Assembly: GCA_000165345.1 (NCBI GenBank)
Contig: CM000436.1
Coordinates: 1 to 64,000, forward strand
Direction: 5' to 3'
DNA length: 64,000 bases
The translations under genes were made by a program, and so were the position numbers. The notes under the pieces were generated by a model that saw only the letters and a list, made by a program, of their open reading frames with translations, was not told the origin of the DNA and made no database searches. Numbering within the stretch: position 1 is the first letter of the stretch; the number at the start of each line of letters is the position of its first letter. Positions 8,164-62,345 of this stretch are shown here, piece by piece.

Positions 8164-8177
8164 TTTTGGCGCTAAGA
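8164..8177. promoter_or_regulatory. E2F-like element TTTTGGCGCTAAGA, about 105 bp upstream of the family member A start codon.
   Basis: TTTGGCGC core. The identical 14-mer recurs at 54267-54280 upstream of the 2484-aa gene. Confidence 0.45.
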
Positions 8178-8617
8178 TTGATGGATATTTATATTGAACA
8201 AAAAATATAAAAACAGATAGAATTTTGAAACTAATTTGGTAATATTAGAGAATTATTATTATTAATTACTATAGAATTAGAAGGAAATTTTAAAGTTTTT
8301 TAAAATTATTGTAATTTAGCTTGTAATGGTACTGAAACAATAATCAGTTTGTATTCGTTTCTGTAAAATTTTCGCATTTAACTGCGACTAGTATTGAATT
8401 TAAAATAAAATTGTATTTGAGTAATTTTTTACACTATCTCAATAGGTGAACTATGATATGCCCAACACTTATTAAATGGATTATTTAAAGCATTGAAATG
8501 TTCTAATTGAGTCGTATCATTGATATTTGCAAATTAGTCACTTCTTTTTTATATTAATTTATTAAGAAACAAATACATTAGAAAACAATATTGTTTGACT
8601 CGTTAAATATTTCTAAA

Positions 8618-11575
8618 TTAAGAATTCTTTTTTTGTAAAAGTATTAATTGATGAGTAAATATTTTAATTAATTCTCTTTCAAGTAACTTTGCTTCGAAGA
8701 AATCTCTCCCTTCTAGACTCGGTGCAATTTCTAAATGCAACATTTGAATCGCGTTACCGCATTTTTCTAATGAATCTTGAATTTCTTCTATTGAAGAACT
8801 TTCTGAAATAATTGAAAAATCTTGAATATTTAAGCCAAAATTGTCTAATTTTGATTGGCTTAAGGCTGTTGAGCCTGAATTAGAGCTTCCACTAGGTGAG
8901 AAAAACTTGAAAAACCTAGAATTAAGATTAGGTTCATTCTGAGGATCGAAATCTGATAAGTATGGGACAGTGAAACCATCAAAAGAAACTTCAGTTTTAA
9001 TCGGTGATGTATCTGTTGGACTTGATGCCTTTCTTGGTCTAGAATTTGATCTTGATACTCTTCTCGATCTTGTTCTAGAACTTGACCTTGATACTCTCCT
9101 CGATCTTGTTCTAGAATTTGACCTTGATACTCTCCTCGATCTTGATCTAGAATTTGACCTAGACTTACTTCTATTAGTGTGAGTTGATTCTGATTTTTGT
9201 CTGGTTCTAGAAGATCTTCTCGCTGATATTTCAATATTAGAACTCATTTTAAGACTTAAATCTTCGCTGTCAGTTAGGGAAATTCCAGCATGACCTTTTG
9301 GGTAAATTTGAAAATTAGAATCCTCACATTTTGTTGCACTTTCTGCCCCTACTTGCGAAGAAGATGCATGATCTTGTTCTGAAATAGAAGCTGCTGCCAT
9401 AGAGTTTGCAAGATCTTCTTCAGCCTTTTCCTCAGATTCAATATCTTCCAACATAGCAGAAAATACAAAAGAAATCAAGCCTTGCAAACTACCTAGACTT
9501 TTTTCAGACTCTCTATACAGCCCCTCTATAGACTCCACCGAACTTAATAATGAATACATAAAGTTACTATGTTGGATGTTCTCTTGCCTTTCTTTTTCTT
9601 TTATTCTCTCCCTTTCTCTCTCCTCCTCTCGTTCTTTCTCTTCCTTTTCTCTTTGATTTTCATTCTTGGTCTTTCTCTCTCCCTGTTTTCTCTTTTTTGG
9701 AGCCTCATATCTTGTCTTTTCCATTTGTTTTGTTTGCCTTATTTGCTCTTTTTGAATGGATTTGGCTTCTTCTTGCAACAATTTTTCTAATTTCTCTCGC
9801 CTTCTTTCTGATTTTGACTTGGAACTATTAAATTTTAAATGTCCTCCAGGTGAAGTAGATCTAGAACGTGACCTTGATTTTGATCTTGATTTAATTTTTT
9901 TACTTTGCTCAGTGAGTTCTTCATTATTCGAACAAGCTACTTCAAAAGATTCACTAACAGTCGGAAATGTTCTTTCCTTCTTGGGCTTCTTATTCCCGGC
10001 TTTTTCCTCCTTTAACTTCCTTCTAGCTTCTCTGTTTTCTTTTCTCTCCTTCTCTTCCTTCTGTTTTTTTCTTTTTTCCATTTCTTCACGCTCTTTTCTA
10101 TATAAACCTAACATCCTTAATCGATTTTTTTTCTCTTTCTCCACTTCTTCCTTAACCCTTTGTCTAAATTTAGTGCTTTGGTTTAATTTCATTTCTTGAG
10201 TTGATAAATTGTCTTTATTAAACCTTATTCGTGTCAAACATCTTTTTATTGAAGGCTCGAGTAAATTAATAGCTAAATCCAACATTTTTGTCAAATAATT
10301 TGAACTTGAAACATTTTCTTTCTCATTTTTTAATAATAACAGAGATTTTAATAAAATTGTATACAAATTCATTGATTTAGTATATATCTCATCCTTTTCT
10401 AAAGATCTGATAAAAGCTTCTTTTACCATGTTATTTGATTGAATTTCTGAATTTCCCAATAATTCTCTGACTTGTAATTTTATTTCTTGAGCAACACTTT
10501 CTTCAACTCTCAGAGGTGTTCCTCTAGCTGAAATCATATCTAATATTTCTAAATTACATTTTTCAATATCTGTTGACCAACTCTTCGAATCCTCACCAAA
10601 CATATAAACCATAAATGATAATGCTCTTAAATTATTTATTGCAGTTAGAACTAACATTTCAATTTTGAAAATTTGGGCTTCAGTTAAATCCTTGCATTCA
10701 AAATAGTCGTGAAATAAAAAATAGCCTCTTAAAATATCTGTTTTATCTAATTCTTCACTTGGATTTTCTGAATTCAAGCAATTAACAAATTTAGAAGCTA
10801 ATTCTTTATTTTCTTCTGATTTTTCAAGAGAAATTTGAGACAATTTCATAAATGGACTTTTGTAATTCGGTACAAATAAAACAAAATTTTGTCTACTTGA
10901 AACATATTGTTTTGAACGTTCTCTTCTTGATGAATTTATGTATTTATTTGAATAATTATTAAATGAAGCAATAACAAATGTTCCAAGATCAAGGATTGAA
11001 AAAATAAGCTGCGCAAATCCTTCGTTTGCTTCAAATGAAAGTAAAATATTTAACTTAGTCATCAACTCGTCTGCTAACTGTGTAATCTCATCTTGATTTG
11101 CTGCTAGAAATTCGAAATAACTTGGTGAAAAATGTTCACGCATTTCTATTAGTTTTGATAACAATTCATTATTACTTTTTGAGAAATCCAAAAGAAGATT
11201 TTCTTTGGCTTTACTAACCAATTCATCACTCCTTTCAAGCATAGAATTCAGAATCATTGATTGAATACACCCATTCAAAAATATTAAATCGTTCGTAAAA
11301 TCATTTTTATATATAATTAAAAGCCGTAACATTGCTTCCAACACTTTAGCTAAATTAATAAATGTTAACTCTAAAAGATAATTAGCTTCAAAGCTACTAT
11401 TAACTATTTCCACAGCATAACTTAATCTTTCAATATCAACATTTCCCTTCTTAATTAAAGAAGTACTTGAACTTTTATGAGCTTTCTCATTTATTGGAGC
11501 CTCCGCTCCAATTGTTATTTTTAAATATTTTGTGAAAAATAATAATAGGAAGAATCTCAACCAAAAATATCTCAT
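8618..11575 (-). CDS. Subtelomeric secreted protein, family member B, 985 aa. It has a signal peptide (MRYFWLRFFLLLFFTKYLKITIGAEAP). It has the same architecture as member A, with 3 copies of a 48-nt repeat encoding RRVSRSNSRTRS.
   Basis: Intact ORF sharing the family motifs HSNFMYSLLSSVESIEGLYRE, FDGFTVPYLSDF and LEKCGNAIQMLH...LILLQ. Confidence 0.7.
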   Translation of the reverse strand: MRYFWLRFFLLLFFTKYLKITIGAEAPINEKAHKSSSTSLIKKGNVDIERLSYAVEIVNSSFEANYLLELTFINLAKVLEAMLRLLIIYKNDFTNDLIFLNGCIQSMILNSMLERSDELVSKAKENLLLDFSKSNNELLSKLIEMREHFSPSYFEFLAANQDEITQLADELMTKLNILLSFEANEGFAQLIFSILDLGTFVIASFNNYSNKYINSSRRERSKQYVSSRQNFVLFVPNYKSPFMKLSQISLEKSEENKELASKFVNCLNSENPSEELDKTDILRGYFLFHDYFECKDLTEAQIFKIEMLVLTAINNLRALSFMVYMFGEDSKSWSTDIEKCNLEILDMISARGTPLRVEESVAQEIKLQVRELLGNSEIQSNNMVKEAFIRSLEKDEIYTKSMNLYTILLKSLLLLKNEKENVSSSNYLTKMLDLAINLLEPSIKRCLTRIRFNKDNLSTQEMKLNQSTKFRQRVKEEVEKEKKNRLRMLGLYRKEREEMEKRKKQKEEKERKENREARRKLKEEKAGNKKPKKERTFPTVSESFEVACSNNEELTEQSKKIKSRSKSRSRSRSTSPGGHLKFNSSKSKSERRREKLEKLLQEEAKSIQKEQIRQTKQMEKTRYEAPKKRKQGERKTKNENQREKEEKEREEERERERIKEKERQENIQHSNFMYSLLSSVESIEGLYRESEKSLGSLQGLISFVFSAMLEDIESEEKAEEDLANSMAAASISEQDHASSSQVGAESATKCEDSNFQIYPKGHAGISLTDSEDLSLKMSSNIEISARRSSRTRQKSESTHTNRSKSRSNSRSRSRRVSRSNSRTRSRRVSRSSSRTRSRRVSRSNSRPRKASSPTDTSPIKTEVSFDGFTVPYLSDFDPQNEPNLNSRFFKFFSPSGSSNSGSTALSQSKLDNFGLNIQDFSIISESSSIEEIQDSLEKCGNAIQMLHLEIAPSLEGRDFFEAKLLERELIKIFTHQLILLQKKNS
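9040..9185 (-). repeat. Coding tandem repeat of about 48 nt in 3 copies inside family member B, encoding RRVSRSNSRTRS-type RS repeats.
   Basis: Visible periodicity: tcttctcgatcttgttctagaa(c/t)ttgaccttgatactc repeated three times. Confidence 0.8.
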
Positions 11576-62065: not shown

Positions 62066-62320
62066 GATCTTTTCTCTTTTGGAGGTCGAAAACAATATAA
62101 TATATACTATATTAAATAAACAGAGTTATTAAAGTGTAGGTACGGAAGAAACCCACTTCTGTGGACTATTCAAAGTGTCCATTTACTTATTTTCTGTAAT
62201 TCAATGAACAAATATAAATAGGTATATATAAATAATTACAAATTGCAAGGAATAATAGTAGATTGTCTTTGACTAAAATTACTTCCTGTGTGGAAGGTTA
62301 CTAATAGAAAGTATTGCATT

Positions 62321-62345
62321 TTTAGCGGCAATGTTTGGCGGTAAA
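62321..62345. promoter_or_regulatory. TTTAGCGGCAATGTTTGGCGGTAAA E2F-like pair, about 260 bp upstream of the TBP-like gene.
   Basis: TTTGGCGG core plus an AGCGGC half-site. Confidence 0.35.

What the first reader, a model, noticed from the sequence alone, without database searches (positions are those of the whole stretch)
8164..62345. GGCGCC / TTTGGCGC (E2F-like) palindromic elements recur about 40-140 bp upstream of almost every start codon, often paired in divergent promoters
The GC-rich motif stands out against about 75% AT intergenic DNA at these sites:
- 1609-1618 AACCGCCAAC
- 8164-8177 TTTTGGCGCTAAGA
- 11708-11719 GTAGCGCGCTCA
- 16848-16858 TAGCGCCAAAG
- 19907-19918 TAGCGCCAAAAG
- 21766-21776 TTGGCGCCACC
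- 30788-30798 AAGGCGGGAAC
- 33761-33777 GGTGGCGCCTGCGCCAA
- 42539-42555 TTGGCGCCGGCGCCAAC
- 54267-54280 TTTTGGCGCTAAGA
- 57216-57239 AGGCGCCAATAGTTGTGGCGCCTG
- 58125-58150 TTCCCGCCATTTTGTTTGGCGG
- 62321-62345 TTTAGCGGCAATGTTTGGCGG

This matches the E2F/DP-type upstream motif (TGGCGCCA-like) reported as over-represented in Cryptosporidium promoters. The motif spans both the secreted family and housekeeping genes. An exact 14-mer is shared by gene A and the unrelated 2484-aa gene. Both are notable.
Basis: partly seen in the sequence, partly recalled or inferred. Interest (0 to 1): 0.5.

Follow-up and report, generated by a model that had tools for sequence, protein, structure and literature searches.

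The report
Known E2F promoter motif in Cryptosporidium
The GC-rich GGCGCC/TTTGGCGC boxes upstream of most genes at this Cryptosporidium parvum chromosome end are real and conserved across the genus, but they are local copies of the E2F-type promoter motif already reported as the commonest upstream motif in this parasite.

Summary
The window is the left end of C. parvum chromosome 8: telomere repeats, then about 22 protein genes and a U1 snRNA gene.

**Observation:** all 13 listed sites exist, five of them with the start 1-2 nt off the stated coordinate.
- TGGCGC/GCGCCA is the most enriched hexamer in DNA up to 350 nt upstream of starts: 12 there against 2 elsewhere, p = 9e-11.
- GC-core words number 26 in 6.4 kb of upstream DNA, against 3.0 ± 1.9 in shuffles. 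There are 0 in 7.8 kb of other intergenic DNA and 10 in 48 kb of coding DNA.

**Conservation:** orthologous loci come from six other Cryptosporidium species.
- A core sits at the same distance from the ATG in 50 of 65 comparisons, against 18% for mismatched gene pairs.
- Core columns are 82% identical, against 56% for the rest of the intergenic DNA.
- GGCGC, GGCGG and GCGCG replace one another at the same position, so they behave as one site class.

**Interpretation:** E2F/DP-type sites acting as general, often bidirectional, promoter elements. This is already published (Oberstaller 2013; ATAC-seq preprint 2025).

- 18 of 23 transcription units have a site, at 40-320 nt rather than 40-140 nt.
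- The flanks of the shared 14-mer are not conserved in orthologs.
- The 57.2 kb pair is shared by Mak5 and U1 snRNA.

**Verdict:** already known; low interest.

The parts
1611..1620 (.). AACCGCCAAC, a weak E2F-like variant (reverse complement TTGGCGG). It lies 66-75 nt upstream of the ATG of the first gene (1686-2558 +, cgd8_10-type) and 10 nt from the telomere repeats.
   Evidence: One mismatch from WTTSSCSS. No ortholog data, so its status is uncertain.
8164..8177 (.). TTTTGGCGCTAAGA, a strict E2F consensus (TTTSSCGC). It lies about 109 nt upstream of the secreted-family gene 5285-8059 (-).
   Evidence: The chipmunk genotype I ortholog has TTTGGCGGCAA at the aligned position.
11707..11718 (.). 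GTAGCGCGCTCA, a GCGCGC-core variant. It lies about 135 nt upstream of the secreted-family gene 8618-11575 (-).
   Evidence: C. meleagridis keeps GCGCGC. Chipmunk has GGTGGCGC and C. ubiquitum has TTAGCGCCAAC at the same place.
16848..16858 (.). TAGCGCCAAAG, a strict E2F consensus. It lies about 79 nt upstream of the secreted-family gene 14117-16771 (-).
   Evidence: GGCGCC is present in chipmunk and absent in C. ubiquitum.
19907..19918 (.). TAGCGCCAAAAG, a strict E2F consensus upstream of the 200-aa gene 19268-19870 (-). It lies 39 nt from the first ATG, or about 100 nt from the ATG that ortholog annotations use.
   Evidence: Conserved in C. meleagridis, chipmunk and C. ubiquitum; core columns 93% identical.
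21765..21775 (.). TTGGCGCCACC, a palindromic site in the divergent promoter of the acid phosphatase gene (20318-21592 -) and the amino-acid transporter gene (22054-23466 +).
   Evidence: Conserved in all three orthologs.
21806..21818 (.). TTTGGGCGGGAAT, a second GGCGGG-type site in the same divergent promoter.
   Evidence: Conserved in C. meleagridis and chipmunk; C. ubiquitum has GAGCGGGAAT.
30788..30798 (.). AAGGCGGGAAC, a classical E2F variant (TTCCCGCC). It lies in the divergent promoter of the 1249-aa gene (26896-30645 -) and the 135-aa gene (30910-31317 +).
   Evidence: The core is identical in four orthologs (C. felis has GGCGGCAA). A conserved G-box-like block CCTGTGTGGGG follows it.
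33761..33777 (.). GGTGGCGCCTGCGCCAA, a double site. It lies 42-55 nt upstream of YL1/Vps72 (32373-33722 -) and about 710 nt from the divergent 1061-aa gene (34481 +).
   Evidence: Orthologs have GGCGCCGGCGCC; core columns 91% identical.
36685..36692 (.). TGGCGCCA inside the coding sequence of the 1061-aa gene. Candidate intragenic site, for example for an antisense or internal transcript.
   Evidence: The GGC GCC codons are identical in C. meleagridis, C. ubiquitum and C. canis, and read GGC GGT in C. felis. Five other coding-sequence cores are not conserved. Its function is inferred only.
38600..38611 (.). CACCGCCAAAAC (reverse complement TTTTGGCGG), about 320 nt upstream of CpTSP4 (38922-40388 +).
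   Evidence: Conserved in C. meleagridis and C. ubiquitum. C. canis has TTGGCGCCAAAA at the aligned position.
42539..42555 (.). TTGGCGCCGGCGCCAAC, a tandem double palindrome in the divergent promoter of the E1/NAE1-like gene (40751-42280 -, about 260 nt away) and RNA polymerase II Rpb2 (42848-46711 +, about 300 nt away).
   Evidence: Core 98% identical across five species, against 55% for the rest of the spacer.
54267..54280 (.). TTTTGGCGCTAAGA, a strict E2F consensus about 77 nt upstream of the 2484-aa gene (46740-54194 -).
   Evidence: TTTGGCGCC in C. ubiquitum and C. canis at -83 and -77; GCGCG at -73 in C. andersoni.
57215..57238 (.). AGGCGCCAATAGTTGTGGCGCCTG, a double site shared by the Mak5 helicase gene (54583-57096 -, 120-140 nt from the ATG) and the U1 snRNA gene (62-85 nt from its 5' end).
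   Evidence: Conserved in C. ubiquitum, C. canis and C. felis; one copy in C. andersoni. U1 is syntenic in all four.
57300..57458 (+). U1 spliceosomal snRNA gene. The GGCGC at 57314 lies in its stem-loop I and is not a promoter site.
   Evidence: Rfam RF00003, 85.9 bits against a gathering score of 69.5. A conserved CCCATCATAAA block lies at about -56.
57649..58063 (-). It is the nearest gene to the 58125 site.
   Evidence: Reading of the sequence, with a gtaagt...acag intron. Ortholog gene calls.
58125..58146 (.). TTCCCGCCATTTTGTTTGGCGG, an inverted pair of GGCGG-type sites. It lies 62-83 nt upstream of the small gene and about 530 nt from the divergent 1130-aa gene (58673 +).
   Evidence: The pair is conserved in C. 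ubiquitum and C. canis; C. felis and C. andersoni each have a single core there, GGCGG and GGCGCC.
62321..62341 (.). TTTAGCGGCAATGTTTGGCGG, a double variant site 265-285 nt upstream of the TBP gene (ATG at 62606 +).
   Evidence: C. ubiquitum has TTTAGGCGGCAACTTTGGCGG and C. felis has TTTAGGCGGGAAA at similar distances.

Best explanation
These are E2F/DP-type binding sites: TTTSGCGC half-sites, palindromic TGGCGCCA, and the GGCGGG/GGCGG variants. They act as the main sequence-specific promoter element of the compact Cryptosporidium genome.

**Proposed mechanism (inferred).**
- A winged-helix E2F-DP heterodimer binds the CG core. The literature reports that C. parvum encodes two or three E2F and two DP proteins.
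- Each site lies in the short nucleosome-free spacer 40-320 nt upstream of the ATG.
- Binding promotes Pol II initiation in one direction at single half-sites in tandem gene arrays. It promotes initiation in both directions at the mostly doubled or palindromic sites in head-to-head spacers, including the Mak5/U1 snRNA pair.
- The motif is not restricted to cell-cycle genes. It behaves as a general promoter element.

**Shown here.** Enrichment, confinement to promoter-containing spacers, and conservation of position across the genus with turnover between variants.

**Taken from papers.** The factors exist, and the motif dominates open-chromatin peaks.

**Inferred only.** That E2F/DP is the binding factor, and that binding activates transcription.
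For: - **Local enrichment.**
  - TGGCGC occurs 14 times against 2.0 in shuffles.
  - It is the top hexamer in upstream DNA, p = 8.6e-11.
  - There are 26 core hits against 3.0 ± 1.9 in shuffled upstream DNA. None occur in 3' or AT-spacer DNA, and coding DNA is at or below expectation.
- **Match to the consensus.** All four strict TTTSSCGC matches are upstream. WTTSSCSS has 12 upstream matches (1.88 per kb), against 0.17 per kb in coding DNA.
- **Conservation.** Orthologous loci came from C. meleagridis, chipmunk genotype I, C. ubiquitum, C. canis, C. felis and C. andersoni.
  - 50 of 65 comparisons keep a core within ±35 nt of the same ATG distance, against 218 of 1191 for non-orthologous pairings.
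  - Core columns are 82% identical, against 56% for other spacer columns.
- **One site class.** GGCGC, GGCGG and GCGCG interchange at aligned positions.
- **Consistent absence.** Genes that lack the motif in C. parvum also lack it in their orthologs.
- **Literature.**
  - It is the most prominent motif in sporozoite ATAC-seq peaks, more than half of which are bidirectional promoters (10.1101/2025.01.17.633476).
  - The AP2-domain study groups the E2F motif with motifs recognised by known non-AP2 proteins and leaves it out of its figure of AP2-bound motifs.
Against: - No direct binding or mutational evidence exists for any Cryptosporidium E2F/DP protein. The 2025 review says most regulatory components lack functional validation (PMC12246861).
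- The genes served here are not a classical E2F regulon: secreted proteins, a transporter, TBP, Rpb2 and U1 snRNA.
- pRb and most other components of the E2F-Rb complex have no C. parvum orthologs in OrthoMCL; DP1, RPD3 and LIN-53 are retained.
- Distance to the ATG is variable (40-320 nt). Transcription start sites are unknown here except for U1.
- Five of 23 units have no site within 350 nt.
- The conservation statistics treat related species as independent comparisons.
Confidence: 0.8

Rival explanations
1. The boxes are functional promoter elements, but E2F/DP does not read them. Another GC-box-binding protein could recognise them. Alternatively they could act mainly as a structural, nucleosome-excluding or start-site-positioning core-promoter element.
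For: - No binding data exist for Cryptosporidium E2F/DP.
- The motif occurs upstream of nearly all gene classes and of a snRNA gene. That fits a general core element better than a specific regulator.
- pRb and most other components of the E2F-Rb complex have no C. parvum orthologs in OrthoMCL.
Against: - The sequence fits the E2F consensus closely, including the T-run and A-run flanks and the known GGCGGG/TTCCCGCC variants.
- Cryptosporidium is the only apicomplexan reported to keep E2F/DP, and the only one with this motif dominant.
- E2F and DP genes are expressed when these promoters are open.
Confidence: 0.15
2. GGCGCC-type and GGCGG/GGCGGG-type boxes are two unrelated motifs bound by different factors. 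Lumping them together inflates the count.
For: Oberstaller et al. list them as separate motifs 3 and 4. Some sites are weak variants, for example 1611 and 62321.
Against: - The two types replace each other at aligned orthologous positions. Examples:
  - TTTGGCGC in C. parvum against TTTGGCGG in chipmunk, upstream of the 924-aa gene.
  - CCGCCAAAA against TTGGCGCCAAAA upstream of TSP4.
  - GGCGCCAA, GGCGGCAA and GGCGGTAA upstream of Mak5.
- Both types are accepted E2F site variants, and Oberstaller et al. themselves assign both to E2F-DP.
- Enrichment holds for the GGCGC type alone: 3.07 per kb in the 250 nt upstream of starts, against 0.06 per kb in coding DNA.
Confidence: 0.04
3. Chance or composition: GC-rich words merely look conspicuous against AT-rich spacers.
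For: The zero count in the AT-rich spacers is uninformative on its own, because only 1.0 hit is expected there.
Against: - Upstream segments hold 26 core hits against 3.0 ± 1.9 in dinucleotide-preserving shuffles, maximum 10 in 200 shuffles and 11 in 1000.
- TGGCGC/GCGCCA is the top-ranked hexamer.
- Position is conserved across seven species.
Confidence: 0.01

Closest known systems
Cryptosporidium parvum E2F-like upstream motif (5'-TGGCGCCA-3'; motif 3 [C/G]GCGC[G/C] and motif 4 GGCGGG of Oberstaller et al. 2013; earlier noted by Bankier 2003 and Mullapudi 2007; dominant motif in ATAC-seq peaks, Xiao et al. 2025 preprint)
   Same: Same organism, same sequence, same upstream location, either strand, one or two copies, found in bidirectional promoters and upstream of many functional classes. 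The window's sites are instances of this motif.
   Different: Nothing essential. Three points go beyond the papers I read, and all are modest extensions:
- site-by-site positional conservation out to C. felis and C. andersoni, with turnover between variants;
- the shared Mak5/U1 snRNA promoter;
- a conserved intragenic site.
Canonical E2F/DP sites of animals and plants (TTTSSCGC; plant WTTSSCSS, e.g. TTTCCCGCC and TTTGGCGGG)
   Same: CG-rich symmetric core with T-run and A-run flanks. Promoter-proximal. Often doubled or palindromic. Works in either orientation. Interchangeable variants.
   Different: In animals and plants these sites mark a cell-cycle and DNA-replication regulon controlled through Rb-family pocket proteins. 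Here they sit upstream of about 80% of units of every class. pRb and most other components of the E2F-Rb complex have no C. parvum orthologs in OrthoMCL. Binding has not been demonstrated.
ApiAP2 cis-elements of Apicomplexa (TGCATGCA, GCACAC/CACACA, G-box G[T/C]GGGG)
   Same: Short, conserved, promoter-proximal words in AT-rich spacers of a compact apicomplexan genome. A conserved G-box accompanies the site at 30.8 kb. Conserved G-boxes also occur upstream of two E2F-less genes.
   Different: Different sequence. The AP2-domain study treats the E2F motif as recognised by non-AP2 proteins and does not list it among AP2-bound motifs. AP2 motifs were not found in sporozoite open chromatin.

Membership tests
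E2F/DP binding site (cis-element) | Sequence matches the E2F consensus TTTSSCGC, or WTTSSCSS with a [C/G]GCGC[G/C] core | tested here: met
   - Four strict TTTSSCGC matches, all upstream.
- 12 WTTSSCSS matches upstream, 1.88 per kb against 0.17 per kb in coding DNA.
- Six of seven SGCGCS matches upstream.
- Two listed sites, 1611 and 11707, are off-consensus variants.
E2F/DP binding site (cis-element) | Promoter-proximal location, enriched over background | tested here: met
   15 clusters in the 350 nt or less upstream of starts, against 2.6 ± 1.5 in shuffles. None in 3' or spacer DNA. Top-ranked hexamer. The only start site that can be placed, U1, has the pair at -62 to -85.
E2F/DP binding site (cis-element) | Purifying selection on the site: conserved in orthologous promoters | tested here: met
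   50 of 65 orthologous comparisons conserved, against 18% for mismatched pairs. Core columns 82% identical, against 56% for the rest.
E2F/DP binding site (cis-element) | The genome encodes the cognate E2F and DP proteins | not tested
   The genes are not in this window. The literature reports two or three E2F (cgd1_1560/1570, cgd6_1430) and two DP (cgd7_3650, cgd8_1850) genes in C. parvum.
E2F/DP binding site (cis-element) | Physical occupancy by E2F/DP, and a transcriptional effect when the site is mutated | not testable with these tools
   I found no published ChIP, EMSA or mutagenesis. The review states that most components lack validation.
Classical E2F regulon (cell-cycle / DNA-replication genes under Rb control) | Sites restricted to S-phase and cell-cycle genes, with Rb-family co-regulators | tested here: not met
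   The genes served include three secreted paralogs, an acid phosphatase, an amino-acid transporter, TSP4, YL1, Rpb2, Mak5, TBP and U1 snRNA. No pRb ortholog is reported. The element therefore works like an E2F site but does not define a classical E2F regulon.
Published C. parvum E2F-like upstream motif (Oberstaller 2013) | C. parvum upstream region; TGGCGCCA, [C/G]GCGC[G/C] or GGCGGG; either strand | tested here: met
   Organism shown by exact protein matches. Sequences and locations as above. Description in PMC3734150.

The most novel reading that the evidence does not exclude
The E2F-type box is not a stage or cell-cycle regulator in Cryptosporidium. Instead it is the genus-wide, positionally fixed element that defines where promoters are.
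- It is usually doubled where transcription leaves in both directions.
- It serves mRNA genes and at least one snRNA gene (U1).
- It occasionally sits inside coding sequence, as with the synonymously conserved TGGCGCCA at 36685, where it could launch internal or antisense transcripts.
- Genes without it are either co-transcribed with the upstream gene or depend on other elements such as the G-box. In this window three of them follow the upstream gene in close tandem, and two have a conserved G-box.
Probability: 0.3. Interest if true: 0.45.

Novelty: already known. Interest (0 to 1): 0.2.

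Why it matters
Cryptosporidium is the only apicomplexan reported to keep E2F/DP factors, and how its genes are switched on remains largely untested. The window adds no new kind of element. 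It does give a clean, well-conserved set of test promoters:
- a tandem double palindrome between the E1-like gene and Rpb2;
- a pair shared by Mak5 and U1 snRNA;
- single half-sites in front of three secreted paralogs.

It also shows that site position and presence or absence have been held across the genus. That supports function and would help in choosing targets for ChIP, reporter or CRISPR experiments.

Tried and rejected
- **The 14-mer as a longer element: rejected.** TTTTGGCGCTAAGA occurs at 8164 and 54267. The sequence beyond it is unrelated at the two sites. Orthologs of both genes keep the core but not the TCTTA flank. The third-best match in the window differs by two bases in that flank. 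It is best read as two strict E2F half-sites plus a 5-6 nt coincidence in AT-rich sequence.
- **Two separate motif classes (GGCGCC against GGCGG): rejected.** The two interchange at aligned orthologous positions.
- **GC-rich 57.3-57.6 kb stretch.** I first guessed SRP RNA. Rfam shows it is U1 snRNA.
- **E1-like gene start.** I suspected that the 548-aa ortholog annotations started nearer the 42539 motif. All the proteins begin MDQFRSRE, MNQFRSRE or similar, at the window ATG 42280, so the distance of about 260 nt stands.
- **Polycistron check: not possible.** I wanted to see whether the motif-less tandem genes (17180-18688, 23664-26513 and the 170-aa gene) are listed polycistrons. The preprint's supplements are not held.
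- **tRNA scan:** none found.
- **Pfam:** no family for 12 of the 19 proteins scanned.
- **Rfam at a permissive threshold on 33.7-34.5 kb:** nothing credible for the ultra-conserved block.
- **Literature search for a cross-species footprinting study of this motif:** none found in the held library.

Full report
**What the window is**

Bases 36 to about 1600 are noisy CCTAAA telomere repeats. A gene-dense, AT-rich stretch follows.

Five of six window proteins looked up match database proteins exactly. Four of them (YL1/Vps72, CpTSP4, Mak5 helicase and the first gene, labelled cpbgf_80010 / CPHLJ_8g10) carry the name C. parvum Iowa II. The fifth, the acid phosphatase, has an Iowa II accession, and its listed names give only C. 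parvum. The window is therefore the left end of C. parvum chromosome 8.

I count 22 protein-coding units plus one RNA gene:
- The ORFs. Pfam identities include acid phosphatase, amino-acid transporter, YL1, TSP/PAN, a ThiF-like E1, Rpb2 and a DEAD helicase.
- A small two-exon gene at 57649-58063 (-), seen in the sequence and annotated in orthologs.
- TBP, with its ATG at 62606.
- A U1 snRNA gene at 57300-57458 (+), Rfam 85.9 bits.

The three genes at 5285-8059, 8618-11575 and 14117-16771 are paralogs, 30-45% identical, with hydrophobic N-termini.

All 13 strings are present. Five start 1-2 nt off the stated coordinate.

| Test | Result |
|---|---|
| TGGCGC in the whole window | 14 observed, 2.0 ± 1.4 in shuffles |
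| All hexamers, 350 nt or less upstream against everything else | TGGCGC/GCGCCA ranks first: 12 against 2, 43-fold, p = 8.6e-11. CGCCAA and GGCGCC also rank high. The other top words are AT-rich composition words |
| Core 5-mers (GGCGC, GGCGG, GCGCG and complements), upstream DNA (6.4 kb) | 26 observed, 3.0 ± 1.9 in shuffles |
| Same, other intergenic DNA (7.8 kb) | 0 observed, 1.0 expected, so uninformative alone |
| Same, coding or RNA sequence (48 kb) | 10 observed, 15.2 expected |
| Strict TTTSSCGC | all four matches upstream |

**Site-by-site picture**

- Fourteen of 17 promoter-containing spacers carry at least one site.
- Eighteen of 23 units have one within 350 nt.
- Distances to the ATG are 39-145 nt for about 11 units and 175-320 nt for the rest. 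'40-140 bp upstream of almost every start codon' is therefore somewhat overstated.
It is not 530 nt from nothing.
- The 57215 pair lies between Mak5 (120-140 nt from the ATG) and U1 snRNA (62-85 nt from its 5' end).
- The GGCGC at 57314 is part of U1 itself.
- Double sites occur in 5 of 6 head-to-head spacers, against 1 of 8 unidirectional ones (p = 0.026). This supports 'often paired in divergent promoters'.
- Single half-sites of the form TTTGGCGCTA occur in both orientations relative to the gene.

**Independent test by comparison with other species**

I used three window proteins as anchors. With them I fetched syntenic loci from C. meleagridis, chipmunk genotype I, C. ubiquitum, C. canis, C. 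felis and C. andersoni. Gene order is conserved.

- For each C. parvum site cluster, an ortholog has a core within ±35 nt of the same ATG distance in 50 of 65 comparisons (77%). The figure is 218 of 1191 (18%) when genes are deliberately mismatched.
- In MAFFT alignments of the spacers, core columns are 82% identical to C. parvum, against 56% for all other columns.
- At 42539 the double palindrome is 98% identical across five species, in a spacer that is otherwise 55% identical.
- Variants replace one another at aligned positions (GGCGC, GGCGG, GCGCG), which argues for one functional class.
- The four genes with ortholog data and no site in C. parvum (17180-18688, 23664-26513, 34481-37666, 58673-62065) also lack it in every ortholog but one. 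That one is a single CCGCC at about -215 upstream of the C. felis ortholog of 58673-62065.
- The fifth motif-less unit, the 170-aa gene, has no core within 450 nt upstream in three of its four orthologs.
- These counts treat related species as independent, so the p-values are only indicative. The direction and size of the effect are clear.

**What it is and how it probably works**

The sequence is the E2F/DP consensus. The literature describes exactly this motif in C. parvum:
- It is the most over-represented upstream motif (TGGCGCCA, core [C/G]GCGC[G/C], plus GGCGGG). It was first noticed on chromosome 6 by Bankier et al., and is found upstream of 161 of 200 co-expression clusters (PMC3734150; PMC4117751).
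- It occurs upstream of many lncRNAs, and the authors of that study suggest bidirectional promoters as one explanation for lncRNA-mRNA co-expression (PMC7840661).
- Cryptosporidium is the only apicomplexan reported to retain E2F and DP genes.
- The AP2-domain study treats the E2F motif as one recognised by non-AP2 proteins and does not include it among the motifs AP2 domains bind.

The best explanation is that an E2F-DP heterodimer binds these boxes in the nucleosome-free spacer and promotes initiation in one or both directions. Binding and activation are inferred, and no direct test has been published. Because the genes served are of every class, and no Rb ortholog is reported, the element works like an E2F site without defining a classical E2F regulon.

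**The shared 14-mer**

TTTTGGCGCTAAGA at 8164 and 54267 is exact. However, the flanking DNA is unrelated at the two sites. The TCTTA extension is not conserved in orthologs of either gene. I read it as two strict half-sites plus a short coincidence, not as a distinct element.

**Genes without the box**

- Three are downstream members of close tandem pairs: 17180-18688 after the 200-aa gene, 23664-26513 after the 1249-aa gene, and the 170-aa gene after YL1.
- Two are the far partners in head-to-head spacers.
- Two have conserved G-box-like blocks (AAACCCCGC at 26628, TGTGGGGTTT at 58525).
- Co-transcription and AP2-type control are both possible. I could not test either, because the preprint's supplements are not held.

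**Verdict**

The feature is already known, so the interest is low. The useful additions are the corrected gene assignments, the cross-species footprint and several side observations, which are listed separately.

Noticed in passing
window 34100-34275 (spacer between YL1 at 32373-33722 and the 1061-aa gene at 34481): About 170 nt are almost invariant from C. parvum to C. felis. A 40-nt block, AGCATGTAGGAAAACAGTTAGAGGGAAACGGGGGTGAAAA (34173-34212), is identical in five species, although the E1-like protein nearby is only 44-87% identical across the same species. Stop codons are visible in all three + strand frames. There is no credible Rfam match; the best is an H/ACA-like hit at E = 8 on the - strand. 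The RNAalifold structure is weak with little covariation. Candidate unannotated non-coding RNA or conserved 5' leader.
   Followed up: partly
window 57300-57458 (+), and L005-L008 at about 9640-9850 (-): U1 spliceosomal snRNA gene, 204 nt from the Mak5 ATG and divergent from it. It is syntenic in C. ubiquitum, C. canis, C. felis and C. andersoni. A conserved CCCATCATAAA block lies about 56 nt upstream of the U1 5' end, resembling an snRNA proximal element. The E2F-like pair sits just beyond it.
   Followed up: partly
window 36685-36692, inside the coding sequence 34481-37666 (+): A perfect TGGCGCCA formed by Gly-Ala codons GGC GCC. These codons are kept unchanged, including third positions, in C. 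meleagridis, C. ubiquitum and C. canis, and read GGC GGT in C. felis. Five other GC cores in coding sequence are not conserved. Possible intragenic or antisense promoter site.
   Followed up: partly
window 57649-58063 (-): Small two-exon gene with a gtaagt...acag intron at about 57742-57817. Orthologs are annotated at 111-125 aa.
   Followed up: partly
window 26628-26636 and 58525-58534; also 30810-30820: Conserved G-box-like blocks (GCGGGGTTT, TGTGGGGTTT, CCTGTGTGGGG). The first two lie upstream of genes that lack an E2F-type box. The third lies next to the 30788 site. G[T/C]GGGG is a published ApiAP2 motif.
   Followed up: no
window 21790-21800, 38618-38630, 57200-57207: GGTAC-containing blocks (TTGGTAC, GGTACCGGGTAC, CGGTACC) are conserved across species right next to several E2F-like sites. 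Unexplained; possibly a second promoter word.
   Followed up: no
window 1-35 and 36-1600: A 35-nt non-telomeric leader (cttgcttgctgcctgcggtcgactctggggtaccc) precedes the CCTAAA repeats and looks like adapter or assembly-end sequence. The telomere repeats carry many irregular units, as expected from long-read consensus errors.
   Followed up: no
window 2559-5284 and 11576-14116: Two spacers of 2.5-2.7 kb at about 17-20% GC lie within the subtelomeric cluster: one between the first gene and the first secreted paralog, the other between the second and third paralogs. Similar gaps exist at the same places in the chipmunk genotype I and C. ubiquitum loci. They contain no E2F-type core. Their content was not examined further.
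   Followed up: no
window 19811-19870: The first in-frame ATG of the 200-aa ORF (19870) probably is not the true start. Orthologs are annotated at 135-183 aa, and a signal-peptide-like MSFKKFISATIF... begins 20 codons downstream in the window ORF. With that start, the 19907 box lies at about -100 rather than -39, matching the -105 of two of the three orthologs.
   Followed up: partly
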